Below are positions 1,201-21,277 of a DNA stretch of 26,051 bases, one piece after another; position 1 is the stretch's first letter, and every line of letters begins with the position of its first letter. This stretch comes from a virus. Its lineage: Duplodnaviria; Heunggongvirae; Uroviricota; Caudoviricetes. The notes below the pieces were generated by a model. It did no database searches and was not told the origin of the DNA. It worked only from the letters and a program-made list of their open reading frames with translations. Made by a program: the position numbers and the translations under genes. The stretch spans positions 1 through 26,051 of IMG/VR virus record IMGVR_UViG_3300015186_000011. One strand, given 5' to 3'.

Positions 1201-1268
1201 TATTACCTGAAAAACCACATATGGATAGACAACCCATAAATACGAACAGATATTACCTTTCAGGTGAT
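1201..1268 (-). promoter_or_regulatory. Conserved bipartite upstream element (copy A) ahead of the tailspike gene: TATTACC-N6-AACCACATATG, then TATTACCTTTCAGGT 50 bp away
   Basis: Plus-strand tattacc at 1201-1207 and 1251-1257, accacatatg at 1214-1223. The same arrangement recurs at 21198-21277 upstream of the portal operon. ACCTTTCAGGT is an ACCT-N3-AGGT inverted repeat. Confidence 0.5.
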
Positions 1269-1304
1269 TCGCAAAACGTGCTGGATAGCAAACAAATTAT
1301 TTGA

Positions 1305-1324
1305 TACTGTATAAACATACAGTT
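1305..1324. promoter_or_regulatory. LexA (SOS) box TACTGTATAAACATACAGTT
   Basis: Perfect CTGT-N8-ACAG with an AT-rich spacer (CTGT 1307-1310, ACAG 1319-1322), matching the E. coli LexA consensus TACTGTATATATATACAGTA. It lies about 20 bp upstream of the RBS of the 1344 gene and overlaps a TATAAA -10-like hexamer at 1310-1315. Confidence 0.65.
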
Positions 1325-1343
1325 ATTGCATGGAGAAGATAAG

Positions 1344-1601
1344 ATGCAGCAGTATCACTATCCACTGGAAGACGGATTTACCGAAAGGATTCACACGCCG
1401 GGAGGCGTCAGATCACTAGTGGAGGGATCGCACTTGATGAAATTACTCCGGGATCTCGATAAGGATGGATTTAATGTCGATGGCCCACTTGCCGAACTGA
1501 CTGCACTGATTAACTACGTCACCAGCTCACAGATGTCTATGCAGGATCTGCAAACACATCTCGACTATTGTGCCGAACAATTACGAAAGCAAACCAGATA
1601 A
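1344..1601 (+). CDS. Small (85 aa) standalone protein homologous to the C-terminal domain of the two antirepressors in this window; candidate SOS-inducible antirepressor
   Basis: ATG at 1344 with GGAG 8 nt upstream (the ORF track begins at a TTG at 1326). The product ...YPLEDGFTERIHTPGGVRSLVEGSHLMKLLRDLDKDGFNVDGPLAELTALINYV...DLQTHLDYC... aligns with the C-termini of the 1915..2607 and 3858..4802 products (YxPLKPGYRSLIHSPSGVLGLTENSLLMNLLN.LQEDGHDVSGAAAELTTMF...DIQTHAEY). Confidence 0.6.
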   Translation: MQQYHYPLEDGFTERIHTPGGVRSLVEGSHLMKLLRDLDKDGFNVDGPLAELTALINYVTSSQMSMQDLQTHLDYCAEQLRKQTR

Positions 1602-1741
1602 GGTTTGCAATTACCAAGCGGAGTGCTTATATTTACCTTTGCGGTAAATTTACATCGCACTCCTCTTGTGCCATAGTAATCGAGCACTGGCAAAATCCAG
1701 TGCCGGGATTGGTCTCCCGGATTACTACAGAGGCACATATG

Positions 1742-1760
1742 CCGCATAAGCGGTTTTTTT
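1742..1760 (+). terminator. Weak putative intrinsic terminator (short CCGC/GCGG stem followed by T7 run)
   Basis: ccgcataagcggttttttt. The stem is only 4 bp, so this is low confidence. Confidence 0.3.
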
Positions 1761-1914
1761 ATGTGTAAAGCGCACCTATTCTATGGTGGGCTGTGTGGGG
1801 GCACCGAAAGGTGCGCCGGGTTCCTTTGTAGCCGGTAAGACCAACTCTGCACAGTTCACCACCATCTGATTGGTCTCAGCGGTGGTGATTAACCTAACTA
1901 CAAAGGTGATCGCC

Positions 1915-2607
1915 ATGAATACCAAACCTTCCATCTTTTCCTTTGAGTCATCCTGCCAGATCCGTATGTTCATGATTGACGGAGAACCTTGGTTTGTCAC
2001 CAAAGATGTGTGCAATGCTTTGAATATTGATGTTACACAAGCGAGAAAACTTGATAAAAAAGGCTGGAACAAAAAGGGGCTGTATTCAATACAGACCCCT
2101 GGTGGAATACAAGAACTATCCATCGTTTCAGAATCAGGTCTCTACATCCTTATTCTGCGTTGCAAAGAGGCAATGACTGAGGGAACGAGAGCATTCAGAT
2201 TTCTTGAATGGGTTACAGGTGAGGTTCTTCCTCAGATCCGCCGCACCGGAAGTTACATTAAAAACTCGCTCCCGCAGGAAGAACGCATAAAGATGGTTGC
2301 CGACCAGGTAGCCAACGCCACGGCGTCAGCAGTGATGCAGGCGATGAAGATAGAGAACAAAACCTACAGTGCCCCACTGAAGCCCGGCTACCGCAGCCTG
2401 ATTCATTCGCCGTCTGGTGTTCTCGGCCTGACGGAGAACTCACTGCTGATGAATTTGCTGAACAAGTTACAGGAAGACGGGCACGATGTATCGGGCGCGG
2501 CAGCGGAGCTGACCACCATGTTCTGCTACATCGTCGGTGTGAGCAAATGCCTGCGTGATATCCAGACGCACGCGGAGTACATCAATGACAAGGCAGGGTT
2601 CTTCTGA
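1915..2607 (+). CDS. Phage antirepressor with BRO-N N-terminal domain and the shared antirepressor C-terminal domain
   Basis: ATG at 1915 preceded by AAGGTGA. N-terminus MNTKPSIFSFES..QIRMFMIDGEPWFVTKDVCNAL is a typical BRO-N signature. The C-terminal ~80 aa are near-identical to the C-terminus of the 3858..4802 product. Confidence 0.75.
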   Translation: MNTKPSIFSFESSCQIRMFMIDGEPWFVTKDVCNALNIDVTQARKLDKKGWNKKGLYSIQTPGGIQELSIVSESGLYILILRCKEAMTEGTRAFRFLEWVTGEVLPQIRRTGSYIKNSLPQEERIKMVADQVANATASAVMQAMKIENKTYSAPLKPGYRSLIHSPSGVLGLTENSLLMNLLNKLQEDGHDVSGAAAELTTMFCYIVGVSKCLRDIQTHAEYINDKAGFF

Positions 2608-2631
2608 CGGGCGGCGGCACATGGATGTGCC
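2373..2631. repeat. Left arm of a ~260-bp inverted repeat (partner 3834..4092), ~95% identical at DNA level
   Basis: Reverse complement of 3834-4092 matches 2373-2631 with only a few mismatches. The match spans the antirepressor C-terminal domain coding sequence and ~24 bp beyond the stop codons (cgggcggcggcaca[t/g]ggatgtgc). Confidence 0.7.
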
Positions 2632-2728
2632 TACAATTATCAATAATTGTTTACACTCGTTGCAGTTAAAAGCATTATACTCATGTTTAAAATTACCCGA
2701 TTGGTAAAGTCGATTGGTTGAGGTTCAT

Positions 2729-3055
2729 ATGAGCAGAAGATATGTCAAGGAGCTGGCTATAGAGTCTGGCACCCCTTTGGGTATCGTTCCTGGCTCCAAC
2801 TATGCCAAGGCTTTAAACCGAGACTCTGTCGTCAAAGTTATATCAAGAGACATGAATATGGTCGGAGACGATCTCAGACGGTCAGAAAATCGTGTTTATG
2901 CTGAATATATAGTAAAGAACGGAAAAAAAATTGCAGCGCCTGCTGGCGGAAAATGGGCAATAGTGACAGGGAAAAACTCAAATGCAAGAGGAAAACCAGA
3001 AGCTAAAGGAATGTCCTTCGACAAATATGCAAAAATCTATTGGGCAACCAAGTGA
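2729..3055 (+). CDS. Hypothetical protein (108 aa), first gene of a plus-strand cassette
   Basis: ATG at 2729 with GAGGT 5 nt upstream. Product MSRRYVKELAIESGTPLGIVPGSNYAKALNRD... has no family I can place. A CAATTATCAATAATTG inverted repeat lies upstream at 2634-2649. Confidence 0.45.
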   Translation: MSRRYVKELAIESGTPLGIVPGSNYAKALNRDSVVKVISRDMNMVGDDLRRSENRVYAEYIVKNGKKIAAPAGGKWAIVTGKNSNARGKPEAKGMSFDKYAKIYWATK

Positions 3056-3530
3056 TAACGAAGAAACTGAGTTCGAGGAAGTTGAGGAAGGGCTAAGTAA
3101 CGAGATCATTCAACACCCAGATGCCTTCACAAGAGTTCTTGATCGCCCTGAAATTCAGGAGATAGTTGTCGCTCACCATGCGTTTCAGGGTCCGCTTCCT
3201 CCCCCCTATCTGCTTCGCGGGTATCAGGATATTTTACCTGATGCCCCCGAACGCATCTTCCAGCTGACGGAGAAGGAGTTTGCTCACCGCCAGAAAATGG
3301 AGGAAAAGGCACTTGACGGGGCTATTAATAGAGATAAACGTGGGCAGTGGTTTGGCCTGAGTGCAACTATTTTTACAGTAGCTTGTGCAACATTATTAGG
3401 TTTAACAGGTCATGAAGTTCTAGCTGGCACAGTGATCGGTACAGTTGTTGCAGTGGCTGGTATTTTTGTTCTCAGACAAAAACCGAGCTTAAAGAAGAAC
3501 GCTGAAGATAAAACACCAGAAGAAGAGTAA
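2982..3530 (+). CDS. DUF2335-like predicted membrane protein (acidic N-terminal region, two C-terminal TM helices)
   Basis: Motif GPLPPPYLLRGYQDILPDAPERIFQLTEKEFAHRQKMEEKALDGAINRDKRGQWFG followed by hydrophobic segments matches my recollection of DUF2335. Start is ambiguous (ATG at 2982 or 3027); both overlap the upstream ORF in another frame. Confidence 0.55.
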   Translation: MQEENQKLKECPSTNMQKSIGQPSDNEETEFEEVEEGLSNEIIQHPDAFTRVLDRPEIQEIVVAHHAFQGPLPPPYLLRGYQDILPDAPERIFQLTEKEFAHRQKMEEKALDGAINRDKRGQWFGLSATIFTVACATLLGLTGHEVLAGTVIGTVVAVAGIFVLRQKPSLKKNAEDKTPEEE

Positions 3531-3553
3531 GCCCGCGACGCGGGCTTTTTTGT
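3531..3553 (+). terminator. Rho-independent terminator
   Basis: GCCCG-cgacg-CGGGC stem-loop followed by TTTTTTGT, immediately after the stop of the DUF2335-like gene. Confidence 0.7.
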
Positions 3554-3623
3554 GGGCGAAACAAAAGTCAGTGCTACACTCATTGACGCCACATTGAGGT
3601 GGTTTATAGATGGAAATTTCACA

Positions 3624-3785
3624 ATGAAAAAAGCATTTGCTGCACTGTTCGTTTTGTTGTCTCTGGTAGCTTCAACTCAGGCCTTTGCCGGTCGTTGTCA
3701 GCACGACAGCGACACTGCTGCTGACGGCTCCCGCTGCGGTGGGCGTTCTGCGGATTCCCGCCCGGGCGGCGGTGGCATTCGTTAA
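3624..3785 (+). CDS. Small putative secreted peptide (53 aa) with N-terminal signal peptide
   Basis: MKKAFAALFVLLSLVASTQAFA has signal-peptide character with an AxA cleavage motif. The mature part is Gly/Arg/Asp-rich with 2 Cys. RBS is weak and the gene is short, so confidence is low. Confidence 0.4.
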   Translation: MKKAFAALFVLLSLVASTQAFAGRCQHDSDTAADGSRCGGRSADSRPGGGGIR

Positions 3786-3807
3786 AAACAAGGCCGCGAA
3801 AGCGGCC

Positions 3808-3821
3808 TGTGACATGTCACG
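3808..3821. promoter_or_regulatory. Copy 1 of the 14-bp palindromic motif CGTGACATGTCACA (read on the minus strand), between convergent genes
   Basis: Perfect 12-bp palindrome GTGACATGTCAC at 3809-3820, just after a GGCCGC-GAAA-GCGGCC hairpin (3792-3807). The identical 14-mer recurs at 22254-22267 and 24519-24532. Confidence 0.6.
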
Positions 3822-3833
3822 ATAGTTTCGTTT

Positions 3834-4092
3834 TGCACATCCCTGTGCCGCCGCCCGTCAGAAGAACCCTGCCTTGTCGTTGATGTACTCCGCGTGCGTC
3901 TGGATATCACGCAGGCATTTGCTCACACCAACGATGTAACAGAACATGGTGGTCAGCTCCGCCGCCGCGCCCGATACATCGTGCCCGTCTTCCTGTAACT
4001 GGTTCAGCAGATTCATCAGCAGTGAGTTCTCCGTCAGACCGAGAACACCAGACGGAGAATGAATCAGACTGCGGTAGCCGGGCTTCAATGGA
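3834..4092. repeat. Right arm of the ~260-bp inverted repeat (partner 2373..2631)
   Basis: See left arm; covers the 3' end of the minus-strand antirepressor gene plus ~24 bp downstream. Confidence 0.7.
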
Positions 4093-4802
4093 TAACCATA
4101 ACATTTTGTCTGTGTTTTAATTGCCTCACGAAGCGCATCTAACATCTTGACTGCCACTTCATCATTCTCTGATGCAGATCCAGCAGGGAGATACTCCCCT
4201 TCAAGCGGAACCCGAGCAACAAGAGACAACGCTTCGGCAAATTGATCTTCACCAATTTCTTTGTACGAACAGCCAAAATGAGATTTCAGTGACGACCACA
4301 TGGTGATCATCGCCTTAGCCTGTTTTTCTTTTGGCAGAGACTGACCGCGACTCATGACGAGTTGTTTAATGGCTTCCTGCTGTTCAGTTGTTATTTTACC
4401 CGGCAACGCCTTTTTAGCTTTGCGTGGGTTAACCACATGGCCTTTAGTCCAGTACTCGTAGAGCACATCGTCACACTCTTCCTGATACTGGATTACCTTG
4501 TCGCGGATTTCAGGGCGGACTTTGTTAGGGCTGATGGTTTGCAGCCAACCTGCAAGTTTGCGTAAAGCAAGACAGATAACCAGACGACGCTGAGTATCAC
4601 CGGGGAGCTGAATGGTCATTTCGACCATGCAGCTCTTAAAGCGTTGTTGCAACTTGCGGAACTGCGTTTTCCAGTCCAGCCCCATACCTTCAACGACTGG
4701 TTTCATTGGGGTGTATGGTTCGCCGTTATGATTGACAACATAAAGCTCTGCGCCGTGGAATGGCACGTTGATAGTAGATACCGCTGTTGCTATACTCGTC
4801 AT
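3858..4802 (-). CDS. ant: P22 Ant-like antirepressor (AntA / P22_AR_N-type N-terminal domain plus shared C-terminal domain)
   Basis: 314-aa ORF with AGGAA RBS. N-terminus ...GAELYVVNHNGEPYTPMKPVVEGMGLDWKTQFRKL is antirepressor N-domain-like. It sits immediately downstream of an Arc-like gene, as in P22 immI. Confidence 0.75.
   Translation of the reverse strand: MTSIATAVSTINVPFHGAELYVVNHNGEPYTPMKPVVEGMGLDWKTQFRKLQQRFKSCMVEMTIQLPGDTQRRLVICLALRKLAGWLQTISPNKVRPEIRDKVIQYQEECDDVLYEYWTKGHVVNPRKAKKALPGKITTEQQEAIKQLVMSRGQSLPKEKQAKAMITMWSSLKSHFGCSYKEIGEDQFAEALSLVARVPLEGEYLPAGSASENDEVAVKMLDALREAIKTQTKCYGYPLKPGYRSLIHSPSGVLGLTENSLLMNLLNQLQEDGHDVSGAAAELTTMFCYIVGVSKCLRDIQTHAEYINDKAGFF
4768..4796 (+). promoter_or_regulatory. 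Sigma70-like promoter (TTGATA-17 bp-TATACT) firing antisense across the ant translation start
   Basis: -35 TTGATA 4768-4773, 17-bp spacer, -10 TATACT 4791-4796. Predicted start near 4803, directly opposite the ant start codon (4800-4802) and RBS. Confidence 0.5.
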
Positions 4803-4877
4803 GTCGTTAATTCCTATACGTAGTTTTACGATACTGAAGCCCTGACGGTCTGGCCACCGTGGGGCTTCGCTGTTTTA
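4803..4877 (+). ncRNA. sar: Candidate sar-like antisense small RNA (~75 nt) complementary to the ant ribosome-binding region
   Basis: A promoter at 4768-4796 and an intrinsic terminator on the same strand (nested hairpin GAAGCCC..ACGGT-ctggcc-ACCGT..GGGCTTC at 4836-4868, then GCTGTTTTAT) bracket a ~75-nt transcript in the arc-ant intercistronic region. This mirrors the sar antisense RNA of P22 immI. Confidence 0.45.
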
Positions 4878-5042
4878 TGCCACGCTATTCTTCTCACCAG
4901 TGAGTCCATACACTTTCCTCAGCTGATAGATAATCTCTGTATTGAACTTTCGGCATTCTTTTTCGCCATTTCTTTCAATAGCTAACTTCACATCGTCCGG
5001 AAAACGAACTCGTCGTTGACACATCTCTTTTGCTTTTTGCAT
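4875..5042 (-). CDS. arc: Arc-like ribbon-helix-helix repressor (55 aa)
   Basis: ATG at 5040-5042 with a strong TAAGGAGA Shine-Dalgarno (the track ORF starts at an upstream GTG). Product MQKAKEMCQRRVRFPDDVKLAIERNGEKECRKFNTEIIYQLRKVYG resembles P22 Arc (..FNLRWPREVLDLVRKVAEENGRSVNSEIYQRV..). It lies upstream of ant and divergent from an Mnt-like gene. Confidence 0.65.
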   Translation of the reverse strand: MQKAKEMCQRRVRFPDDVKLAIERNGEKECRKFNTEIIYQLRKVYGLTGEKNSVA

Positions 5043-5056
5043 TTCATATCTCCTTA

Positions 5057-5071
5057 GCCCCACCGTGGGGC
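5057..5071. promoter_or_regulatory. Palindromic operator candidate GCCCCACCGTGGGGC (Mnt-operator-like core CCACCGTGG) at the predicted +1 of the arc-ant promoter
   Basis: Near-perfect palindrome between the predicted Pant -10 and the arc RBS. The core matches, as I recall it, the P22 mnt operator core CCACGGTGG (reverse complement). The 12-mer CCACCGTGGGGC recurs at 4854-4865. Confidence 0.5.
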
Positions 5072-5077
5072 AAAATA

Positions 5078-5125
5078 ATTGTCACACCGTGCGTCATTGA
5101 TGTCAAGCACACGGTGAGGCATACT
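5078..5125. promoter_or_regulatory. Divergent overlapping promoters: Pant-like (minus strand) and Pmnt-like (plus strand)
   Basis: Minus strand: -35 TTGACA (plus coordinates 5101-5106), 17 bp, extended -10 TGtGACAAT (5078-5083). Plus strand: -35 TTGATG 5097-5102, 17 bp, -10 CATACT 5120-5125. Inverted CACCGTG / CACGGTG half-sites at 5085-5091 and 5110-5116. Confidence 0.5.
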
Positions 5126-5162
5126 TCAATCATTGCAAGTAACTCAATATTTGGTGAAGAAC

Positions 5163-5594
5163 ATGAGCAGAGAAGATCCACAACTAAGGATCAGACTTCC
5201 CGTTGAAGTAAAAGAAAAAATAGAAATTTCTGCAAAAGCCAATAAGCGATCAATGAACGCTGAAATAGTACAACGTCTTGACACCAGCTTTCTGAAAGAT
5301 ATTCATGAAGATGACGTAATTTCTGCTTATGAAGCAAAAATTATTGCAAACAATGCACGACATGAAATATCAAATATTATTTTCAAAAGAACCTTTAATG
5401 AAATTAATAAGAAAATAACACTTGGACATACAAGTTTTTATATAAACCTTAATGACCTTGAACTGGAATCACTTGCAGATAATGATTACCAGATCATCTT
5501 TGAAAAAACATTTAATAAGCTCAATGAACTAGGTTACATCATCTGTGAAAACTCATGGGATGCAGATGGTTTTGGAATTGAAATACCTGAATAG
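5163..5594 (+). CDS. mnt: Mnt-like ribbon-helix-helix repressor with an AT-rich C-terminal extension (143 aa)
   Basis: ATG at 5163 (track ORF starts at a TTG at 5133). N-terminus MSREDPQLRIRLPVEVKEKIEISAKANKRSMNAEIVQRL closely resembles P22 Mnt (MARDDPHFNFRMPMEVREKLKFRAEANGRSMNSELLQIV). The C-terminal ~95 aa have no match I recognise and the DNA turns markedly AT-rich. Confidence 0.7.
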   Translation: MSREDPQLRIRLPVEVKEKIEISAKANKRSMNAEIVQRLDTSFLKDIHEDDVISAYEAKIIANNARHEISNIIFKRTFNEINKKITLGHTSFYINLNDLELESLADNDYQIIFEKTFNKLNELGYIICENSWDADGFGIEIPE

Positions 5595-5607
5595 GAAGAA
5601 CAAAAGG

Positions 5608-5630
5608 CGTGTACATATTACACGTCTTTA
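5608..5630 (+). terminator. Hairpin CGTGTA-catat-TACACG followed by a T-rich tract; putative terminator or operator
   Basis: 6-bp inverted repeat with TCTTTAAT downstream, between the Mnt-like gene and the membrane-protein gene. Confidence 0.3.
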
Positions 5631-5684
5631 ATACAATTGAAAAACGCCACATTACTGATGTATGTTACAACAAGGAGCGATATT

Positions 5685-6248
5685 TTGAAAACCATATCTA
5701 TATTAAAGGTTGCATTAGGCGTCGCTATTATTTTGACTCTCTCAATATTGTTTTATTTTTACCACAAAAAAACTGCTATTGCTCTTGATGGTCACGCGGC
5801 AAACTCATTTTTCTCAGAGTACATAGTGCCGCTATCAGGAAGCGGTATAACAAATAAATATACTGACTATGACATCAAATATGGAATTGATGATGGGGAG
5901 ACTATTGTATTACATGTAATCATTAAAAACCTAATGACAGTAAATAAAAATACAGACTTCAACGATAAAAATACAATACATCACAACAACAGCAAAACAT
6001 TAATTTCTTATAGTAGCAACATCTATACGGATAAATACCTAAAATACATATCAGAAGATACAATAAAAGAAACCCGCGAAAAGTTAAAAAACATATATTG
6101 TGCATCCGGCAGTTTTCACAAATTATCGCCGCAAGAGCGTTTATTCTACGAAGCAAGAAAACAACGTAAGTCAATAATATTACATTATTATGCTGATTCA
6201 GGGGAGTCACTCATATTTAATATTGGGGTTTCCCCTGAATCATGCTAA
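5685..6248 (+). CDS. AT-rich moron: membrane-anchored protein of unknown function (~188 aa), candidate superinfection-exclusion or abortive-infection factor
   Basis: TTG start at 5685 with AGGAG 8 nt upstream (alternatives: ATG 5658, track TTG 5637). N-terminal hydrophobic helix ISILKVALGVAIILTLSILFYFY, then an Asn/Lys/Tyr-rich domain. GC content is far below the flanking phage genes. Confidence 0.5.
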   Translation: MKTISILKVALGVAIILTLSILFYFYHKKTAIALDGHAANSFFSEYIVPLSGSGITNKYTDYDIKYGIDDGETIVLHVIIKNLMTVNKNTDFNDKNTIHHNNSKTLISYSSNIYTDKYLKYISEDTIKETREKLKNIYCASGSFHKLSPQERLFYEARKQRKSIILHYYADSGESLIFNIGVSPESC

Positions 6249-6259
6249 AGGTGTTTAAC

Positions 6260-12536: not shown

Positions 12537-13000
12537 TATTTTCTCTCCATGTGAAATCTGTGGAAATTAAGACCAAGAGCACCATAAGGCGCGGCTTCTT
12601 CAAGCCTGAATCCAAGCCAGTGCAGCCATGCTTTGGCAACATGGTTTCGCTCGTCGACGTAGTTTTCCAGGCGCGGATAAACTGCCAGCATCTGCTGCAA
12701 TACAGGTCGGCAGTGGCGAAGAAATGTCTTCTGATATTTTTCAATACGGCTGGTTCCTACCAGCCAGGGTGTACCATTGCCACCGATCATTGACGCCGGA
12801 GATACACCAAACATGGTTACCAGTTCTCCGTTCGCGAACCCTGACCAGGCCATAGTCGCAGTGCGAAGACCAACACGCAGCGCATCTTCGGTAGTCATCA
12901 GCGATACCGCATACAGTTCGTCAATATCAACCTGACGAACATCCGGCAAAATCATCTGAAGATGCTCTTCGGTGGCGGGAATAATTCGAACATCGATCAT
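12536..13000 (-). CDS. Putative internal virion protein (154 aa), gp13-position analogue
   Basis: Translationally coupled (shares one base with each neighbour); call is positional. Confidence 0.45.
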   Translation of the reverse strand: MIDVRIIPATEEHLQMILPDVRQVDIDELYAVSLMTTEDALRVGLRTATMAWSGFANGELVTMFGVSPASMIGGNGTPWLVGTSRIEKYQKTFLRHCRPVLQQMLAVYPRLENYVDERNHVAKAWLHWLGFRLEEAAPYGALGLNFHRFHMERK

Positions 13001-15465: not shown

Positions 15466-16073
15466 CAGGACAACCTCGCAATGGTAAACTCGTCAACCGG
15501 TGGCTGTGGTTCCTGTGATTCATTCTGGCTATGCGAGCCAGCACTAAGAATCACGCGATTGTACATATTGAGGGCAAACGTACCGAGGTCTGCATTCCCA
15601 GTCAGCGCCATGTTAATAGCTGCCGCAAGACGCCAGGCCAACGCCTCCATAAAAATGGCATCAAACATGTTCACATCTGAAACGCGAGAGACATACTTGA
15701 GCCATGCCTGCGGCTGGTCTGTGTAGATCAACTTTCCTGTTCCGTCGGTGTCTGCACCAACTTCGTACTGAACGCGCATTGCTGCTGTTGGATTGCGAAC
15801 ACCGGGAAGCATGATTTCAGTGATGCGCAGGCAATCAGACGGGTACTGATACGCATACGCCCAGTCAGGCGGTGGATTGCTCGTATCTGCAAGCGCCACG
15901 CGTTTGGTAGCAAAGTTCCAGTCAAAATCAGAAAGCACAGCATCACGACAGGCATCGAAATGCAGGGAACACTCCCCCGCCTCTTTGCTGGCCTCAGTCA
16001 GGCTATTGATGCTGCGACTGTTGCCGATATTCGACAGCGCGCGGTTGCAGATCTCGACAACAGAAGCCATCAC
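15465..16073 (-). CDS. Putative tail tubular protein A-like (202 aa)
   Basis: Position and size as for T7 gp11; coupled to neighbours (ATGA overlap at 16070-16073). Confidence 0.45.
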   Translation of the reverse strand: MMASVVEICNRALSNIGNSRSINSLTEASKEAGECSLHFDACRDAVLSDFDWNFATKRVALADTSNPPPDWAYAYQYPSDCLRITEIMLPGVRNPTAAMRVQYEVGADTDGTGKLIYTDQPQAWLKYVSRVSDVNMFDAIFMEALAWRLAAAINMALTGNADLGTFALNMYNRVILSAGSHSQNESQEPQPPVDEFTIARLS

Positions 16074-16399
16074 TCACCCCCGTTACCGTAAAGGGTTTCA
16101 GCAGCGGATTTATCCGGCTCGCCGGTTGCAGGTGCGATCGCCATGTCGGTGATCTGCAGGTCTGCGCTACGGTTAACGCCGTCATCAGTTTCGCGGGCAG
16201 ACAGTCCGCGAATTACCGCCTTAGCAGTAATCATCACTTCGGTTCCTACACCCTGCGGTTGCGCCTTGAGCTTATTCAGCGTGTCATTGTTCAACGTGAT
16301 GCAAAGCCCCCATGGATATTCGTCGCGGTTTTTGGTTTCTCCGCTCTCGTCCTGGTAGCTGTCGGTGCCGGTTTTGAGGTTGACCAGTTCCATATACAC
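16070..16399 (-). CDS. Hypothetical virion-associated protein (109 aa)
   Basis: ORF in the structural operon, coupled to the downstream gene; unknown family. Confidence 0.45.
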   Translation of the reverse strand: MYMELVNLKTGTDSYQDESGETKNRDEYPWGLCITLNNDTLNKLKAQPQGVGTEVMITAKAVIRGLSARETDDGVNRSADLQITDMAIAPATGEPDKSAAETLYGNGGE

Positions 16400-16409
16400 T
16401 CCTGCAATA

Positions 16410-16427
16410 AAGGGGCCGAAGCCCCTT
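16410..16427 (-). other. Intra-operon stem-loop AAGGGGC-ttcg-GCCCCTT (UUCG tetraloop on the minus strand)
   Basis: Perfect 7-bp stem between two structural genes, followed on the minus strand by only a short U-rich stretch. Likely an attenuator or mRNA-stability element rather than a full terminator. Confidence 0.4.
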
Positions 16428-16443
16428 GTCTGATACGCGAGGC

Positions 16444-16779
16444 TTACACGCCCAGTTCTTTGCGCTTATCTGCGATTTTCTCGCGAAGCGTTTCGGCTTT
16501 GGCGTTATGGTGCGGCTTCTCGTTAAAGAGCAGTTCATACTCTTCGCGGATCTTATCCAGATCGCCATCTTCGGCTGCATCGTTGATGGGTTTGGCACTG
16601 GTTACGGTTTCTGCTGCTTTACCTGTAACCTTTGCTTTCGCCGCCTTCGCTGCATCGTTGATGGGCTCCAGTGCACTACCTGGCTCGCCGTCGTATTCAA
16701 TTTCAGAGCCCTCCGGCCACAGGTTATTGTGGATATGAGAGAGGCGCAGAACGCGGTACTTCGGTTTCTCACCTGACAT
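16444..16779 (-). CDS. Hypothetical acidic protein (111 aa)
   Basis: ORF in the structural operon; Lys/Ala/Glu-rich; unknown family. Confidence 0.4.
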   Translation of the reverse strand: MSGEKPKYRVLRLSHIHNNLWPEGSEIEYDGEPGSALEPINDAAKAAKAKVTGKAAETVTSAKPINDAAEDGDLDKIREEYELLFNEKPHHNAKAETLREKIADKRKELGV

Positions 16780-16789
16780 CGATATCCCC

Positions 16790-17227
16790 TTAGCCGGTTA
16801 CTTTGGAGCGGATCGGATACGGCGTATTTGCATCAACATCCAGGTTAATGCCGGAAGTGAATTTGCCGGCCGTTAGTGGGCCAGTTGCGACGGAGTAGTT
16901 AACACGCAGATATCGCTGAACACCGGCAGGCACCTTTGCAGAAACAACTCGTTTACCTGCTGTCAGGGTAGCCTTTGCCAGTGCGCCACTATCATAAATA
17001 GTGGACCATGAGCTGTTATTCTCACTCGTCTGCAACTGGATGTTTACAGTTGCCTCACCACTTGCCGTGGCGGCTTCGTTAACCAGCGCCCAAAACTCAA
17101 GCGGGTAACCCACGCCGATATCGCGACGATTTCCATCAATTGGACCTAGATCGATTACGTCAGTAGAAGCCGCGGTATCAGTTACCGCCTGTGCTTCGGA
17201 GAACATCAACAGTTTGTCGGTGATCAT
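16790..17227 (-). CDS. Putative capsid decoration / minor structural protein (145 aa)
   Basis: Directly downstream of the major capsid gene with a GGAGAAAG RBS; Thr/Ser/Ala-rich beta-type composition. Functional call is positional. Confidence 0.4.
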   Translation of the reverse strand: MITDKLLMFSEAQAVTDTAASTDVIDLGPIDGNRRDIGVGYPLEFWALVNEAATASGEATVNIQLQTSENNSSWSTIYDSGALAKATLTAGKRVVSAKVPAGVQRYLRVNYSVATGPLTAGKFTSGINLDVDANTPYPIRSKVTG

Positions 17228-17241
17228 CTTCTTTCTCCATT

Positions 17242-17263
17242 AGTGGGTCTGTTACGACCCACT
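17242..17263 (-). other. Perfect 8-bp stem-loop AGTGGGTC-n6-GACCCACT immediately 3' of the major capsid gene
   Basis: No U-run follows on the coding strand; such hairpins after capsid genes typically stabilise the upstream transcript or partially attenuate read-through. Confidence 0.45.
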
Positions 17264-17278
17264 GGTTAATAACAGGCG

Positions 17279-18271
17279 TTACACCACACGGGCTTCTGTT
17301 TCCAGAAGCGCATCAGTTTCACGGATTGGTACACCACGGAATGAAGTCCACCACTCGCCTTCTGTCTCTTTTACGCTGATCGCCAGAGATGTTTTCTCCA
17401 GAGATTGCAGATCAAGAGCCTGGCCTACAGTGCGGTTCATGTAGAACACCGGGCGACCCATTCCACGGTTTGGAATGCGATGCAGTGCTTTAACCATCAA
17501 CTTCGCAATATTTGCGGCAGAGGAAGGTTCTGAAAGATTGCTGACATCGATGTTTGCAATGCGAACAACATAACGCCAGTCACGCAGAGCAAGTCCGTTG
17601 TCCCATTTGTAATGGGTGCGATAGCCTTCGTACTTGCCGCCATTAGCATCTTCCAGTGTCACCTGGCCTTTATCTTCCATCTGGATGCCAGCCTTCTGCC
17701 CTTTCGGGAAGATGCCATGCACGGTGTTTTCGCCCCACACCACTAACCAGATTGAGGTGTTATCTGTACCCGTGCCACCAGCATCAATGATGTTCTGAGC
17801 ATTACCTGCAGACAGGCTGGAATAGCGGGAGGACAGTCCCATAAACTGCTGAGGGTTAACGCTGGAATCACCATAAAACAGCGTCTGCGCCATCTGCTGA
17901 TTCATCGCTTCAATAAATGCGCGGTCTTCAGACAGGCGGAATTCGGCGGTATTGCCGTTCAGATCAGCCAGTGACTTATCGACTTCAGCATAGGTTTCCA
18001 GCATGCCAACGGAATCGGTTACCTGCACTGTGGTTGATTTGCTTGGCTGTACGCCATAGTTCAGCAAACGCCAGGTAGCTGAAGGTAAACCAGAACGAAT
18101 GGTGGTTCGGTGTCCGGTAGGAAGGTTCCCTTCGACAAAAGGCATATCCTGAAGGATCGGGTTAGTTTGACCGAGAAGCTCGATAATCTTATCGACTTTC
18201 CCGTTTGGATCGACGCGCTTACCCCAGTCAGCCAGCGTTAGCGCAGTTAAGCCTTTAACAGCCATTGTCAT
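17279..18271 (-). CDS. Major capsid protein (330 aa)
   Basis: Strong RBS AAGAGAGGAA; located right after the scaffold-like gene; size and order are typical of podovirus capsid genes; a 3' hairpin follows. Confidence 0.6.
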   Translation of the reverse strand: MTMAVKGLTALTLADWGKRVDPNGKVDKIIELLGQTNPILQDMPFVEGNLPTGHRTTIRSGLPSATWRLLNYGVQPSKSTTVQVTDSVGMLETYAEVDKSLADLNGNTAEFRLSEDRAFIEAMNQQMAQTLFYGDSSVNPQQFMGLSSRYSSLSAGNAQNIIDAGGTGTDNTSIWLVVWGENTVHGIFPKGQKAGIQMEDKGQVTLEDANGGKYEGYRTHYKWDNGLALRDWRYVVRIANIDVSNLSEPSSAANIAKLMVKALHRIPNRGMGRPVFYMNRTVGQALDLQSLEKTSLAISVKETEGEWWTSFRGVPIRETDALLETEARVV

Positions 18272-18279
18272 TTCCTCTC

Positions 18280-18981
18280 TTATTTGCCATAGAGCACTTC
18301 GGCCGCACTACGCTGGCCTTCATTACCACCGGTGACCATGCCATCTTCAGACATCGCCTTTCCGATTTTCACGAACGTTTTGACCAGATCAGGGTGATTA
18401 CCCAGCCCGGTGGTGTTCAGATATTCTTTGAGTTCAGGTGTCCCGAACTGGTCAAGCGCACGCTGTGCGGCGCTAAGGTTAGAAATCAACTTGTCGCCAC
18501 CGATTTCTTTGTCAGCTTTTACATCAGCAGCCCACTGCTCGGTTGTTTTCTGCCAGGCTTCTGCCTGGCGCTGCTGCACACCTGCCAGAATCTTCGGATA
18601 AGCATCAACCAGCTTTTGCGCTTGCTCGTTGGTCAGGTTAAGTTCTCGCGCCACCGGCTCGAATTCCTTCAACGCTTCTGTATCCAGCTCTACGCCTTCG
18701 GCAGCCTGAAACTCGTACTTCTCAGGCGCACCCTCTGGTTTATCGCCGTCCTTTTTTTCATCCTGCTTATCGTTTTCAGGCTTTTTGTCATCAGCAGGTT
18801 TATCGCCATCAGCAACAGGTTGTGGCTTATCACCTTCCGATTGTGATGGATCACCAACTGGAGCAGGGTTATCACCTGCAGGCGCTGACGGTTCTGACGC
18901 AGCCGGAGCTGCTCCACCATCGACTGGTTGCTCATTGCAAAGACGGCGATACAGCAAACGCTCAAATAAATTCATGATCAC
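18280..18981 (-). CDS. Putative scaffolding protein (233 aa)
   Basis: Highly acidic low-complexity N-terminal half (PAPVGDPSQSEGDKPQPVADGDKPADDKKPENDKQDEKKDGDKPEG) and helical C-terminal half; sits between portal and capsid genes. Confidence 0.55.
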   Translation of the reverse strand: MIMNLFERLLYRRLCNEQPVDGGAAPAASEPSAPAGDNPAPVGDPSQSEGDKPQPVADGDKPADDKKPENDKQDEKKDGDKPEGAPEKYEFQAAEGVELDTEALKEFEPVARELNLTNEQAQKLVDAYPKILAGVQQRQAEAWQKTTEQWAADVKADKEIGGDKLISNLSAAQRALDQFGTPELKEYLNTTGLGNHPDLVKTFVKIGKAMSEDGMVTGGNEGQRSAAEVLYGK

Positions 18982-19274
18982 TCCTGTTCACTGGCCTCTT
19001 TGGCCATCTTCAAATACTGTTCAGGGCAATGCGCCATAACGCGCTGAAACAGTTCCAGCGCCAGATTGCGTTGCCCCTCATTAAATGCCATTGCCATAGC
19101 GTCCATCGGTGAGATAGCGGAAAACACACGGCCTTTCTCCAGCACCGACCAGACAACGCGACGCCCCTGTTCACTGCTCATGACAAAGCGAATGTCATCA
19201 ATTTCACGCTGTGCCATGTCACGTTGTTTACGGGCGTTTTCTTCTTTCAGTTGATCATCTTCGTAATCTGTCAT
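18978..19274 (-). CDS. Hypothetical small protein (98 aa) between portal and scaffold genes
   Basis: Start overlaps the portal stop and the stop overlaps the scaffold start; unknown function. Confidence 0.45.
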   Translation of the reverse strand: MTDYEDDQLKEENARKQRDMAQREIDDIRFVMSSEQGRRVVWSVLEKGRVFSAISPMDAMAMAFNEGQRNLALELFQRVMAHCPEQYLKMAKEASEQE

Positions 19275-20950
19275 TGTGATTGCCCACCCTGACCACTAAC
19301 TGCATTCGCCATAGCTGACAAAACACTCGGATCCGAAGTTTTAGCTTCGCTTAGCGTCTTGGCGCCCTGTGCCGCCGCCATTCCCATCGCCATCATTTGT
19401 TGCTGCTGTTGCTGCTGTGCCCGTTGCTGGCGAGCCTGCTCAACCTGTTCCTGCGGAACAATGACGGTTGGAGACACTCCGGACATATCAGCGAATGCAT
19501 CGATCGCCTGATCAACGTTGAGTTTGTCGAGAGCTTCTGGTTTCGCTTGCGCAAGTTGACCAATGAAGTTGACCGTAGACGCCAGACTGGACAGGCCGAT
19601 AGACTTCTGCGCCTGAGCCATGACGGAAATGTATTCGACCTTCAGGGGCATACCTTCCATCGCGTCAGGCGGTGGCGGCAGCATGTTTTTACGCACCATC
19701 ATCGAGAAAGCGCGGTCAATGAGAGGATTAAGACATTCGTCGTTCAGACGCTCCAGAACCGGCCCCAACATCAGAAGTTTTTCTTCTTTCATTTCGATCA
19801 CCGCTTCAACAGGCATCGAGCGGGTATTGATGTTCTGCAACATCATGAACAGATCGACAAAGTAGGCGCTGTTAATGATTTGACGAGTGTCCTGAATGTC
19901 TGCCACCAAATCTGCTGTACTGGGGTTAACCAGATAAGCAGGCCTGAAGCCATCCTGACCAGTAATCTGATCGATATACGTGATGTCGCCAGGAAGAAGG
20001 GAGGCGCGCTGATTCTTGAGGGAAGTCGGAGCAACCATCGGCGGATTGGTGGCTTTATCAATCAACTGCGACTTGCGCTTCTGGAGAAGCTGCAATGCCT
20101 TAACAGGTCCAAGCGCCAGCATACCCGGGCATGATGATCCATAAACATCTTCGCCATTAACTTCCCAGCGCGGAGCCATAATTGGAAACTCATCAAATCC
20201 GGACTCACGCAACAACTTGTCGTTATCGCCACCAACCTCGTAATAAACCGATTTGAATGGCTTGTTCTTGCTATCCAGCTTCGATGTATCGCGGTCAATG
20301 TTCGGGTAAACCGAATGCATCACGTCAATCCACTTCTCGTAGTTGCCGCTTTCCCACATGCTTTTTACGGATTCGCTGACGTTATTTAGCCCGAACTCCT
20401 GAACAAGCTGACGAACAGTCATAGAGAACTTGCGAAAACAGGTGTCAACACTGCCACGAGGTGAGTTAGCCAGGTAGTAACTGCCTATCGGGAATGGCAT
20501 TGTGCGAATGATGTCCTCGTCATCCTCCAGCACTGCCATTGCACCAGTGCTGTATGTGCCGAGGCTTCCGTATAACTGCGGAAGAGACTGGTAGAGATTC
20601 GACTTATTGAACATATCGTTCATGCGGTTCTGAACTGCCTCAAGCCACAACTTAACAGGGCCATAATCCATCATTTCAGGATCTGGCGTAGCCAGGCGAA
20701 ACCACGGACGCGCGGGGCTTGTGATGCCTGACATCATGCCGCTGGCGAGAGTGCGCGCCGCCATAGTCCCGGTCGAATCAATAATGCGTGTATTGCGCCG
20801 ATCGTTACGGTTGGCCTCAGAAGTCAGAAAGCGGGAACCACGCGGGTTGATGTAATCACTCAACTCGCGCCAGTGCGGCTCGAACGACTGACGCTCGCTT
20901 TCAAGTTGTGCGAACTGTTTGTTCAATCGCTCTTTAGTTGTTTCCGCCAT
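19271..20950 (-). CDS. Portal (head-to-tail connector) protein, podovirus type (559 aa)
   Basis: Size, position downstream of terminase, and Gln-rich C-terminal tail (QQRAQQQQQQQMMAMGMAAAQG). RBS GGAG 9 nt upstream of the ATG at 20950. Confidence 0.7.
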   Translation of the reverse strand: MAETTKERLNKQFAQLESERQSFEPHWRELSDYINPRGSRFLTSEANRNDRRNTRIIDSTGTMAARTLASGMMSGITSPARPWFRLATPDPEMMDYGPVKLWLEAVQNRMNDMFNKSNLYQSLPQLYGSLGTYSTGAMAVLEDDEDIIRTMPFPIGSYYLANSPRGSVDTCFRKFSMTVRQLVQEFGLNNVSESVKSMWESGNYEKWIDVMHSVYPNIDRDTSKLDSKNKPFKSVYYEVGGDNDKLLRESGFDEFPIMAPRWEVNGEDVYGSSCPGMLALGPVKALQLLQKRKSQLIDKATNPPMVAPTSLKNQRASLLPGDITYIDQITGQDGFRPAYLVNPSTADLVADIQDTRQIINSAYFVDLFMMLQNINTRSMPVEAVIEMKEEKLLMLGPVLERLNDECLNPLIDRAFSMMVRKNMLPPPPDAMEGMPLKVEYISVMAQAQKSIGLSSLASTVNFIGQLAQAKPEALDKLNVDQAIDAFADMSGVSPTVIVPQEQVEQARQQRAQQQQQQQMMAMGMAAAQGAKTLSEAKTSDPSVLSAMANAVSGQGGQSQ

Positions 20951-20964
20951 TTCAATGACTCCGG

Positions 20965-21171
20965 TTACTGACCAAGCAGCGTTTTACCGCTGGTATTAGC
21001 GGTTGATGTGTCGCCCTGAGAACCGGTAAGCAGCGTAGAACTACGACCAGCAGCAGCGCGACGGCGACGTGTTTCTTCGTCGCGGGCATCAACAACGGCG
21101 GCATCCTGCTCCTGTGGTGCTGCCTGAACTTCTGGTGTTGCAGGCACTGATGGTGAGCTACCCATGCACAT
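20965..21171 (-). CDS. Hypothetical small protein (68 aa) directly upstream of the portal gene
   Basis: ATG at 21171 within CGGAGTCATTGAT-ATG; the portal gene has a near-identical initiation region CGGAGTCATTGAA-ATG. Low-complexity acidic/Arg-rich product, so coding status is uncertain. Confidence 0.35.
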   Translation of the reverse strand: MCMGSSPSVPATPEVQAAPQEQDAAVVDARDEETRRRRAAAGRSSTLLTGSQGDTSTANTSGKTLLGQ

Positions 21172-21197
21172 ATCAATGACTCCGTACGCAATTAAAT

Positions 21198-21277
21198 TAT
21201 TACCAATTTAACCACATATGATTTATTTATCGTAGAAGGTTGACATTTGACGCGTGAATTATTACCTTTCAGGTAAC
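21198..21277 (-). promoter_or_regulatory. Conserved bipartite upstream element (copy B) ahead of the portal operon
   Basis: Plus-strand tattacc 21198-21204, aaccacatatg 21210-21220, tattacctttcaggtaa 21260-21276. Same elements and order as 1201-1268 upstream of the tailspike gene. Confidence 0.5.

What the first reader, a model, noticed from the sequence alone, without database searches (positions are those of the whole stretch)
1201..21277. Shared bipartite promoter-like element upstream of both the tailspike and portal operons
The two regions share, in the same order and orientation relative to the downstream minus-strand genes, ACCTGAAAGGTAATA (a palindromic ACCT-N3-AGGT core), then 27-39 bp later CATATGTGGTT-N5-GGTAATA, ending 26-55 nt before the start codon. 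Neither resembles a canonical sigma70 -35/-10 pair. This suggests a phage-specific late promoter or activator-binding site that co-regulates the head and tailspike genes. The ACCT-N3-AGGT palindrome also resembles the recognition motif reported for MqsA-type HTH regulators, which I flag only as a lead.
Basis: seen in the sequence. Interest (0 to 1): 0.7.

Follow-up and report, generated by a model that had tools for sequence, protein, structure and literature searches.

The report
Repressor operator plus shared late promoter
The repeated sequence is real: its first half is one of many binding sites for the prophage's master repressor, and its second half is a conserved promoter-like core that heads the late-gene units of epsilon15-like phages, so this is orderly and largely expected phage regulation.

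Summary
The window is an epsilon15/phiV10-like (Uetakevirus) prophage, 97% identical to phage TL-2011b.

Box 1 is not locus-specific. It is one copy of a 17-bp palindrome, ATTACC-N5-GGTAAT, found about 15 times in TL-2011b against 1.2 expected. The copies cluster around the repressor gene and overlap early promoters. The epsilon15 GenBank record already annotates the two homologous sites as repressor-binding. The ACCT-N3-AGGT (MqsA-like) core is incidental: only 13 of 61 sites keep it.

Box 2 is a near-palindrome (CCATATRTGG, here called the P-box) plus GGTT-N5-GGTAATA with a -10-like hexamer. It is conserved in 17 related genomes. It occurs once ahead of each late unit (portal/head, tailspike, lysis) and nowhere else.

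Best reading: promoter cores lacking a -35, paired at fixed distance with an operator of the tetrameric SPC32H-type Rep. What binds the P-box is unresolved.

At the portal locus, box 1 also overlaps the -10 of a conserved opposite-strand promoter. That promoter heads a structured ~200-nt RNA matching no Rfam family, also present in P1 and Stx/cdtI phages.

The parts
1252..1268 (.). Box 1, tailspike locus: 17-bp Rep-type operator ATTACCTTTCAGGTGAT (1 arm mismatch). It lies between the LexA-controlled ant promoter and the tailspike promoter core.
   Evidence: The homologous epsilon15 site 19895-19911 is annotated protein_bind 'repressor'. Conserved in 6 of 6 phages.
1197..1224 (-). Box 2, tailspike locus: P-box CCATATGTGG (1224-1215), GGTT, 5 nt, GGTAATA (1207-1201), and the -10-like hexamers TAATAG/TAGAAT (1205-1197).
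   Evidence: It sits at a fixed 50-bp frame distance from box 1 in 6 of 6 phages, although the sequence between them varies.
21261..21277 (.). Box 1, portal locus: 17-bp Rep-type operator ATTACCTTTCAGGTAAC.
   Evidence: The homologous epsilon15 site 2931-2947 is annotated 'repressor'. Present in 17 of 17 genomes.
21196..21221 (-). Box 2, portal locus: P-box-like TCATATGTGG (21221-21212), GGTT, 5 nt, GGTAATA (21204-21198), and the -10-like hexamers TAATAA/AATAAT.
   Evidence: The GGTAAT lies where the right half of an operator 62 bp from box 1 would be, in 16 of 17 genomes.
21240..21268 (+). Inferred opposite-strand promoter 'P_left': -35 TTGACA (21240-21245), 17-nt spacer, -10 TACCTT (21263-21268) inside box 1.
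   Evidence: TTGACn-N15-ATTACC is conserved in at least 11 of the 13 non-redundant genomes aligned, Pantoea being the clear exception, coordinates. Inference only; no transcription start data.
21345..21556 (+). Conserved structured leader RNA downstream of P_left.
   Evidence: 96% of cells paired, 9-10 pairs with compensatory changes, invariant G-U pairs that fix the strand. No Rfam match.
21599..21675 (+). tRNA-Arg(UCU), on the same strand as the leader RNA. Present in only some relatives.
20965..21171 (-). First gene of the 'portal operon': conserved 68-aa protein (epsilon15 gp3 homologue, phrog_831). The portal gene follows at 19271-20950(-).
1..1148 (-). 5' part of the tailspike gene (runs off the window).
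   Evidence: N-terminus like epsilon15 gp20
1307..1322 (.). LexA box CTGTATAAACATACAG upstream of ant.
1344..1601 (+). ant: SPC32H-type small antirepressor.
   Evidence: PDB 5d50 chain E, E=5e-47
1632..1648 (.). Further Rep-type operator. It starts at the last 2 nt of the -10 (TATATT, 1628-1633) of the promoter for the isrK/C4 RNA module.
2692..2708 (.). Further Rep-type operator (ATTACCCGATTGGTAAA).
24408..24442 (.). Two tandem Rep-type operators directly before the small-terminase start codon.
   Evidence: The epsilon15 homologue at 12-27 is annotated 'repressor'.

Best explanation
The 'bipartite element' is two different things kept at a fixed distance.

Box 1 is an operator (ATTACC-N5-GGTAAT) of the phage's master repressor. 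That repressor is a homologue of the tetrameric, DNA-looping Rep of Salmonella phage SPC32H. It is encoded outside this window and is inactivated by the LexA-controlled antirepressor Ant, which is encoded next to the tailspike copy.

Box 2 is the core of a conserved rightward promoter. It has a -10-like hexamer inside or next to GGTAATA, no usable -35, and in place of the -35 a near-palindrome (CCATATRTGG, the P-box). This core heads each late transcription unit that has to restart after an opposite-strand insert: gp3-portal-head, tailspike, and (outside the window) lysis.

In the lysogen, a Rep tetramer would hold box 1 with one pair of DNA-binding domains. The other pair would hold the GGTAAT half-site, and perhaps the GGTT half-site-like repeats, in box 2. 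This would loop out and occlude the late promoter.

At the portal locus, box 1 additionally overlaps the -10/+1 of a divergent consensus-like promoter, P_left. P_left drives a structured leader RNA followed by tRNA-Arg and a small accessory gene.

Shown: motif family, positions, conservation, spacing, protein homologies. Inferred: Rep binding to these copies, promoter activity, looping, and the identity of whatever reads the P-box.
For: The operator family is enriched: 15 sites in TL-2011b against 1.2 expected, and 6 in the window against 0.5 expected.

The sites flank the repressor gene (rep). They overlap predicted pL and pR promoters in a fixed geometry, -35-N21-ATTACC, usually with a second operator 62 bp upstream.

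The epsilon15 record annotates the homologous sites upstream of gp3 and gp20 as repressor-binding.

TL-2011b gp10 matches SPC32H Rep (PDB 5d50_A, E=7e-42). The window's 1344-1601 gene matches Ant (5d50_E, E=5e-47).

Published work describes Rep as a tetramer that binds palindromic sites, with a looping-type tetramerisation domain (PMC9638917; PMC9986798).

Box 2 is conserved in 17 genomes from at least 10 genera.

A degenerate box-2 pattern hits 3 times per genome (2 in Klebsiella phage vB_KpnP_BUCT711, where the lysis genes follow the tailspike). Every hit is on the late strand and at the head of a late unit. The unrelated controls, Pectobacterium phage ZF40 and HK022, have no hits.

In the lysis copy, box 2's TAATAR position is occupied by TATAAT or TATGAT.

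The box 1 to box 2 frame distance is invariant: 62 bp in 16 of 17 portal regions and 50 bp in 6 of 6 tailspike regions. In the tailspike regions the intervening sequence is not conserved.

The TTGACn-N15-operator arrangement and the strand-specific structured RNA downstream support P_left.
Against: No binding or transcription-start data could be consulted. The SPC32H and epsilon15 primary papers were not available.

Box 1 sits about 60-80 bp upstream of the presumed late transcription starts, which is not a classical occluding position. Box 2 offers only a half-site for Rep.

The -10 assignment is ambiguous: TAATAA lacks the conserved final T, and alternative hexamers shift by 1-3 nt.

Every relative found shares the same operator arms, so no covariation test between repressor specificity and box 1 was possible.

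Read-through from the terminase genes into the portal unit is not excluded.

The box-2 census pattern was derived from the same instances it counts.
Confidence: 0.6

Rival explanations
1. The P-box in box 2 is the binding site of a phage-encoded late activator. This would resemble P1 late promoters, which (from my own knowledge) combine a -10 with a palindrome in place of the -35, read by the activator Lpa. The Rep operator nearby would serve only neighbouring promoters (ant, P_left) or act as a safety lock.
For: The late cores lack a -35. The P-box is a perfect 14-bp palindrome, AACCATATATGGTT, in the phiV10 and Tyrion lysis copies, and sits at a constant distance from the -10 position. The motif is restricted to late-unit heads.
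Against: No activator could be tied to it. The obvious candidate is the regulator encoded just upstream of the terminase genes (an epsilon15 gp49 homologue). It co-occurs instead with a different palindrome, GTGACATGTCAC, including in the unrelated phage ZF40, which has no P-box. P-box-like sequences also lie in the spacers of, or upstream of, early Rep-controlled promoters. A Rep operator accompanies the late core at the portal and tailspike units in every genome examined and at the lysis unit in the three relatives where one was recognisable (not TL-2011b), which argues that host RNA polymerase can use these promoters unaided.
Confidence: 0.25
2. One reading: box 1 plus box 2 together form one phage-specific late promoter or activator site that co-regulates head and tailspike genes.
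For: Both boxes are shared, ordered and at locus-specific fixed spacing.
Against: Box 1 occurs at about 15 places, including the integrase, pL, pR, replication-gene, antirepressor and terminase regions. It is annotated as a repressor site in epsilon15. Spacing differs between the loci (27, 39, and 30 nt at lysis).
Confidence: 0.07
3. At the portal locus, box 1 regulates only the opposite-strand promoter P_left (leader RNA, tRNA-Arg). Its proximity to box 2 simply reflects a compact divergent promoter region.
For: The geometry TTGACA-17-TACCTT places the operator over the -10/+1 and is conserved in nearly all genomes. The extra conserved blocks between the boxes exist only at this locus.
Against: The tailspike and lysis copies have no such divergent promoter yet keep an operator at fixed distance. 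The 62-bp frame to box 2's GGTAAT equals the commonest spacing between full operators.
Confidence: 0.2
4. An MqsA-type antitoxin/regulator binds the ACCT-N3-AGGT palindrome.
For: Both window copies contain ACCT-GAA-AGGT.
Against: Only 13 of 61 family members keep ACCT...AGGT, whereas the arms TTACC/GGTAA are invariant. No MqsA/MqsR is annotated in TL-2011b. The cognate candidate is Rep.
Confidence: 0.02
5. The shared sequence is a chance or recombination relic (a mosaic-boundary repeat) with no function.
For: Both loci lie at module junctions next to opposite-strand inserts.
Against: Shuffles never reproduce it. It is conserved base-for-base across genera while its flanks diverge.
Confidence: 0.02

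Closest known systems
Predicted repressor-binding sites of Salmonella phage epsilon15 (protein_bind features in GenBank NC_004775.2)
   Same: The same 17-bp palindrome ATTACC-N5-GGTAAT at the homologous positions upstream of gp3/portal (2931-2947), tailspike gp20 (19895-19911), small terminase (12-27) and the pL region.
   Different: These are predictions in an annotation record. Box 2, the P-box, the fixed spacing and P_left are not annotated there; the record marks predicted IHF and RNase III sites nearby instead.
SPC32H Rep/Ant lysis-lysogeny switch (PDB 5D50/5D4Z)
   Same: Homologous Rep (in the 97% relative TL-2011b) and Ant (in the window), a LexA box before ant, and the ant-tailspike divergent arrangement. 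Rep is a tetramer that binds palindromic sites (PMC9638917).
   Different: The rep gene is not in this window. Which operators were tested experimentally could not be checked because the papers were not available.
Phage P1: C1 repressor with operators scattered over the genome, and Lpa-dependent late promoters (-10 plus a palindrome instead of -35). Recalled from my own knowledge.
   Same: One repressor with many dispersed operators controlling separate operons; late promoters with a -10 and a palindrome where the -35 should be.
   Different: P1 operators are asymmetric and C1 is unrelated. P1 late promoters are not, as far as I recall, paired with C1 operators. No Lpa homologue was looked for. 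The palindrome centre here is about -26/-27 if the -10 assignment is right.
Stoperators of mycobacteriophages L5/Bxb1 (own knowledge)
   Same: Repressor sites spread through lytic genes, including positions with no promoter. Compare the tandem sites abutting the small-terminase start codon, 24408-24442.
   Different: Stoperators are asymmetric and orientation-dependent, and number about 30. Here the sites are palindromic and mostly promoter-associated.
Lambda CI looping between OL and OR, and other tetrameric looping repressors
   Same: Paired operators bridged by an oligomeric repressor.
   Different: The loops here would be very short (62 or 48-50 bp) and local to each promoter.
MqsA operator (ACCT-N2-4-AGGT)
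   Same: Both window copies happen to contain ACCT-N3-AGGT.
   Different: That core is not the conserved feature of the family (13 of 61 sites).

Membership tests
Uetakevirus (epsilon15/SPC32H-type) Rep operator | 17-bp palindrome ATTACC-N5-GGTAAT with an A/T-rich centre | tested here: met
   1252-1268 (1 arm mismatch) and 21261-21277 (1 mismatch). Family base counts.
Uetakevirus (epsilon15/SPC32H-type) Rep operator | Multiple copies per genome, clustered around the repressor gene and overlapping early promoters | tested here: met
   15 sites in TL-2011b against 1.2 expected. The pL and pR regions hold 2-3 each, with -35-N21-operator geometry.
Uetakevirus (epsilon15/SPC32H-type) Rep operator | Homologous position annotated or recognised as a repressor site in a reference phage | tested here: met
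   epsilon15 features 2931-2947 and 19895-19911.
Uetakevirus (epsilon15/SPC32H-type) Rep operator | Cognate Rep encoded by the same element | tested here: inconclusive
   No Rep homologue in the window. The 97%-identical TL-2011b encodes one (gp10; PDB 5d50_A, E=7e-42).
Uetakevirus (epsilon15/SPC32H-type) Rep operator | Direct binding by Rep | not testable with these tools
   Needs gel-shift (EMSA), footprinting or ChIP experiments.
Sigma-70 promoter (box 2) | -10 hexamer with A at position 2 and T at position 6 | tested here: inconclusive
   TAGAAT (1202-1197) and AATAAT (21201-21196) fit, and the lysis copy has TATAAT/TATGAT at the aligned place. The register differs by 1-3 nt between loci.
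Sigma-70 promoter (box 2) | -35 hexamer 16-18 bp upstream | tested here: not met
   The best candidates match 2-4 of 6 positions, and the consensus scan finds nothing on the late strand.
P1-type late promoter (Lpa-dependent) | -10 plus a palindrome replacing the -35 | tested here: met
   CCATATRTGG lies 9 nt upstream of the -10 position, and is a perfect 14-bp palindrome in the phiV10 and Tyrion lysis copies. This is an architectural resemblance only.
P1-type late promoter (Lpa-dependent) | Lpa-like activator encoded by the phage | not tested
   No Lpa sequence was compared. No activator could be linked to the P-box.
MqsA-type operator | Conserved ACCT-N2-4-AGGT palindrome | tested here: not met
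   Only 13 of 61 family sites keep it; positions 7 and 11 of the 17-mer vary.
MqsA-type operator | Adjacent mqsR/mqsA genes | tested here: not met
   None among the 59 annotated features of TL-2011b.
Known RNA families (for the leader RNA) | Match to an Rfam covariance model | tested here: not met
   No hit, even at E<=10.

The most novel reading that the evidence does not exclude
Box 1 at the portal locus is the switch for a Rep-controlled opposite-strand promoter. The ~200-nt structured transcript it drives belongs to a family for which I found no Rfam or literature match. The same RNA lies in the pL leaders of Stx2/cdtI lambdoid phages, between trnI and ban in P1, and in more than 120 viral contigs. 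It could act in cis on RNA polymerase as a put-like antiterminator that carries transcription through the terminators downstream. In parallel, the P-box cores would be a new class of late promoter, silenced by a short repressor loop rather than switched on by a Q- or Lpa-type factor.
Probability: 0.15. Interest if true: 0.7.

Novelty: new member of a known kind. Interest (0 to 1): 0.4.

Why it matters
This assigns a concrete regulatory layout to a widespread group of temperate podoviruses: epsilon15, phiV10, SPC32H and many enterobacterial prophages. One antirepressor-sensitive tetrameric repressor appears to sit at early promoters, at the head of the terminase genes, and next to each late promoter core.

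That gives a testable reason why inactivating Rep with Ant would be enough to start the whole lytic programme. It also supplies defined promoter and operator parts for reporter phages built on phiV10.

If box 2 turns out to need a dedicated factor, it would define the missing late regulator of this genus.

The by-product may matter more than the original finding. The conserved leader RNA is shared with P1 and Stx-type phages and matches no Rfam family, so it is a candidate new phage RNA family.

Tried and rejected
1. A canonical sigma-70 promoter at either locus: the scan found none on the late strand.

2. The regulator upstream of the terminase genes (gp49-like, window 24528-24875) as the P-box reader: rejected. 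The unrelated myovirus ZF40 carries a 61%-identical homologue but has no P-box and no operator motif. That protein instead co-occurs with GTGACATGTCAC.

3. The P-box as a Cro-type site: none is present in the rep-cro intergenic region of 5 phages.

4. The P-box as a fixed promoter element: its position relative to -35/-10 differs between early promoters (in the spacer, or upstream of the -35) and late cores.

5. A covariation test between repressor specificity and box 1: not possible. All Rep homologues found, down to 42% identity, keep the same operator arms.

6. A protein-seeded scan of viral contigs returned only near-identical E. coli relatives. Diversity came from the genome collection instead.

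7. Literature: Kropinski 2007 and Kim 2013/2016 are not held. The ZX5 paper tests the repressor and antirepressor but defines no operators. Searches for CCATATATGG and for the leader-RNA 18-mer found nothing relevant.

8. Known RNA families for the boxes or the leader RNA: none. HK022, the phage that carries the put antiterminator RNAs, shows no sequence similarity to the leader.

9. The small gene after the promoter downstream of cro (epsilon15 gp40 family) as a regulator candidate: no informative family match.

Full report
OBSERVATION. ACCTGAAAGGTAATA lies at 1251-1265(-) and 21260-21274(-). CATATGTGGTT-N5-GGTAATA lies at 1201-1223(-) and 21198-21220(-). Dinucleotide-preserving shuffles expect 0.04 and 0.00 copies even with mismatches allowed. 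The gaps between the boxes are 27 and 39 nt. Box 2 ends 52 nt before the tailspike ATG and 26 nt before the ATG of a 68-aa ORF that precedes the portal gene. Outside the boxes the two regions do not align.

WHAT THE WINDOW IS. It is an epsilon15/phiV10-like (Uetakevirus) prophage, 97.2% identical over 90% of its length to Escherichia phage TL-2011b, read on the reverse strand. The late genes run on the window's minus strand: small and large terminase, then gp3/portal through the virion proteins, then tailspike. They are interrupted by plus-strand inserts. Between the large terminase and gp3 lie a gene-66-like ORF and tRNA-Arg(UCU). Before the tailspike lie antirepressor modules.

BOX 1 IS A DISPERSED REPRESSOR OPERATOR. 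Relaxing the pattern shows that box 1 is one copy of the palindrome TTACCT-N3-AGGTAA, better written ATTACC-N5-GGTAAT.
- TL-2011b has 15 copies with at most 2 mismatches, against 1.2 expected. The window has 6, against 0.5 expected.
- The copies are intergenic. They lie before int, two between the repressor gene and the leftward early operon, two to three between the repressor and the cro-like gene, after cro, before a replication/recombination block, before the small terminase, before gp3, in the antirepressor region, and before the tailspike.
- At the leftward early promoter the layout is classical and conserved in six phages. A consensus -35 (TTGACA) is followed by a 17-nt spacer and a -10 whose last two bases begin the operator, and a second operator lies 62 bp upstream. 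The rep-cro region holds three operators.
- The epsilon15 RefSeq record annotates seven such 16-17-mers as 'protein_bind: repressor, lysogeny'. These include 2931-2947 (upstream of gp3/portal), 19895-19911 (upstream of tailspike gp20) and 12-27 (before the small terminase).
- The candidate binding protein is clear. TL-2011b gp10 is a homologue of SPC32H Rep (PDB 5d50_A, E=7e-42). The plus-strand gene at 1344-1601 is the cognate small antirepressor Ant (5d50_E, E=5e-47), preceded by a LexA box at 1307-1322.
- Papers that could be read describe Rep as a tetramer that binds palindromic sites through pairs of DNA-binding domains, with a p53-like, looping-type tetramerisation domain (PMC9638917; PMC9986798).
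- Rep itself is not encoded in the window.

THE MqsA LEAD. Among 61 distinct family sites, the arms TTACC and GGTAA are invariant. Positions 7 and 11 of the 17-mer, the T and A that create ACCT...AGGT, are free, and only 13 sites keep them. TL-2011b has no annotated MqsA or MqsR. The resemblance is incidental.

BOX 2 IS A CONSERVED LATE-UNIT HEAD. Box 2 is conserved at both homologous positions in epsilon15, phiV10, Tyrion, SPC32H and a Klebsiella phage whose Rep is only 45% identical. It is also conserved upstream of gp3 in ten further prophages from Scandinavium, Pseudescherichia, Kluyvera, Pseudocitrobacter, Erwinia, Citrobacter, Pantoea, Klebsiella and a contig labelled Pseudomonas.

A third copy sits upstream of the lysis cassette, outside this window. 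It reads (AA)CCATATATGGTT-TATTGTG-TATAAT or TATGAT. Box 2's TAATAA/TAATAG therefore aligns with a good -10 hexamer, and the upstream part is a palindrome, a perfect 14-mer in phiV10 and Tyrion. I call this palindrome the P-box.

A degenerate pattern covering these instances hits exactly three times per genome, and twice in the Klebsiella phage where the lysis genes follow the tailspike directly. Every hit is on the late strand. ZF40 and HK022 have none. That pattern was derived from the same instances, so the count is descriptive rather than an independent test.

No acceptable -35 exists. In the tailspike alignment a conserved GC hairpin and the ribosome-binding site follow box 2, as expected for a 5' untranslated region that starts just after it. 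I therefore read box 2 as the core of a promoter that restarts late transcription after each opposite-strand insert. This is an inference; no transcription-start data were available.

ARE THE BOXES COUPLED? Yes, by distance. Take the 17-bp frame whose right half is box 2's GGTAAT. It lies 62 bp from box 1 in 16 of 17 portal regions and 50 bp from box 1 in 6 of 6 tailspike regions. In the tailspike regions the 27-28 nt between the boxes are not conserved in sequence. Sixty-two bp is also the commonest spacing between full operators in these genomes: 9 of 26 neighbouring pairs.

Box 2 further contains half-site-like repeats, AACC-N6-GGTT-N5-GGTAA, related to the operator arms TTACC/GGTAA. The simplest mechanism is a Rep tetramer bridging box 1 and the half-site over the -10, so that host RNA polymerase is shut out in the lysogen. 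A Rep operator accompanies the late core upstream of gp3 and the tailspike in every genome examined, and upstream of the lysis genes in epsilon15, phiV10 and Tyrion. None was evident upstream of the TL-2011b lysis copy. This argues that these promoters can fire without a phage activator.

WHO READS THE P-BOX? This is unresolved. The gp49-like regulator encoded just upstream of the terminase genes has an N-terminus that looks ribbon-helix-helix-like by eye, a Cys-rich C-terminus, and belongs to phrog_536. It is not linked to the P-box. Pectobacterium phage ZF40 has a 61%-identical homologue but no P-box. P-box-like sequences also occur in the spacers of two early Rep-controlled promoters and just upstream of the -35 of the promoter after cro. 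They are absent from the rep-cro region. A dedicated late activator, as in P1's Lpa-dependent promoters, remains a live rival at about 0.25.

THE PORTAL LOCUS HAS A SECOND JOB. Between the boxes, only at this locus, lie the further conserved blocks GTCAAT-N4-CTACG-N2-AAATAA. Read on the window's plus strand they give TTGACn-N15-ATTACC. That is a consensus -35, a 17-nt spacer and a -10 (TACCTT, 21263-21268) inside box 1, conserved in nearly all genomes.

Downstream on that strand is a conserved ~200-nt region (21345-21556). It folds better on the plus strand (-36 against -25 kcal/mol). 96% of cells are paired, 9-10 pairs show compensatory changes, no shuffle reaches the observed covariation score, and several G-U pairs are invariant, which fixes the strand. 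tRNA-Arg follows in some phages only. Box 1 here is therefore also a classically placed operator for a divergent promoter.

THE LEADER RNA ELSEWHERE. The same RNA occurs in phage P1 between trnI and ban. It occurs just downstream of the cI terminator and a pL-like promoter in phage cdtI and Stx2 phages. It also occurs in more than 120 IMG/VR contigs (93 distinct versions among the 108 with enough flanking sequence). Where a tRNA is adjacent, it is always on the same strand. The helices hold up with 13 and with 39 diverse sequences. In the 39-sequence set, an alternative long-range pairing of the invariant GCACAU/AUGUGC segments competes with the 5' hairpin. There is no Rfam match, no literature hit for its invariant 18-mer, and no similarity to HK022. 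A cis-acting, put-like role is a guess, suggested by its position just after promoters and before terminators.

COMPARISON AND VERDICT. Box 1 is a member of the epsilon15/SPC32H Rep operator family, already predicted at these positions. Box 2 is a conserved core lacking a -35 that I could not find described. In architecture it resembles P1 late promoters, but it is paired with a repressor operator. Interest is moderate (0.4): the main result is orderly phage regulation in a known family, with an unresolved P-box reader and a possibly new leader RNA as the open ends.

Noticed in passing
window 21345-21556 (+); also L098 2001-2169 (P1, between trnI and ban), L099 2501-2687, L100 2001-2242: A conserved ~200-nt structured RNA with covariation-supported helices and strand-fixing G-U pairs. 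It has no Rfam or literature match. It is present in Uetakeviruses, P1-like phages, Stx2/cdtI lambdoid phages (in the pL leader) and more than 120 IMG/VR contigs, and often sits next to a co-oriented tRNA gene.
   Followed up: partly
window 3809-3820, 22255-22266, 24520-24531 (1-mismatch copy at 19211-19222): The perfect 12-bp palindrome GTGACATGTCAC sits 0-40 nt before intrinsic terminator hairpins at operon ends. The same holds in all relatives and in the unrelated myovirus ZF40, which shares only the gp49-like regulator (window 24528-24875, -). It is probably that regulator's site, with possible control of termination or antitermination into the terminase genes.
   Followed up: partly
window 1307-1322 and 1344-1601 (+): A LexA box (CTGTATAAACATACAG) lies in front of a homologue of the SPC32H small antirepressor Ant (PDB 5d50 chain E). 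This implies SOS induction through an antirepressor rather than repressor cleavage.
   Followed up: yes
window 1628-1866 (+) and 4804-4871 (+): Rfam matches to isrK (1684-1760), C4 antisense RNA (1779-1866) and sar RNA (4804-4871) indicate additional P1/P7-type and P22-type antirepressor control modules. The isrK/C4 promoter (-35 1605-1610, -10 1628-1633) is overlapped by a Rep-type operator at 1632-1648.
   Followed up: partly
window 24408-24442: Two tandem Rep-type operators, 18 bp apart, abut the small-terminase ribosome-binding site and start codon, just after a terminator. No promoter fits there, so they look like a roadblock (stoperator-like) or a block on read-through from the early operon.
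   Followed up: no
TL-2011b (L001) 5171/5233 and 8226/8288; epsilon15 (L002) 32554/32616; other relatives: Full operators come in pairs spaced exactly 62 bp centre to centre, flanking early promoters. That implies a very short loop for a tetrameric repressor.
   Followed up: partly
window 21599-21675 (+): tRNA-Arg(UCU) lies on the strand opposite to the late genes. It is present in TL-2011b, phiV10, SPC32H and BUCT711 but absent from epsilon15, Tyrion and ten other prophages, although the surrounding promoter and leader RNA are kept.
   Followed up: yes
window 20965-21171 (-): The first gene of the 'portal operon' is a conserved 68-aa protein (MCMGSSPS..., phrog_831, epsilon15 gp3 homologue) of unknown function, found ahead of the portal gene in all relatives.
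   Followed up: no
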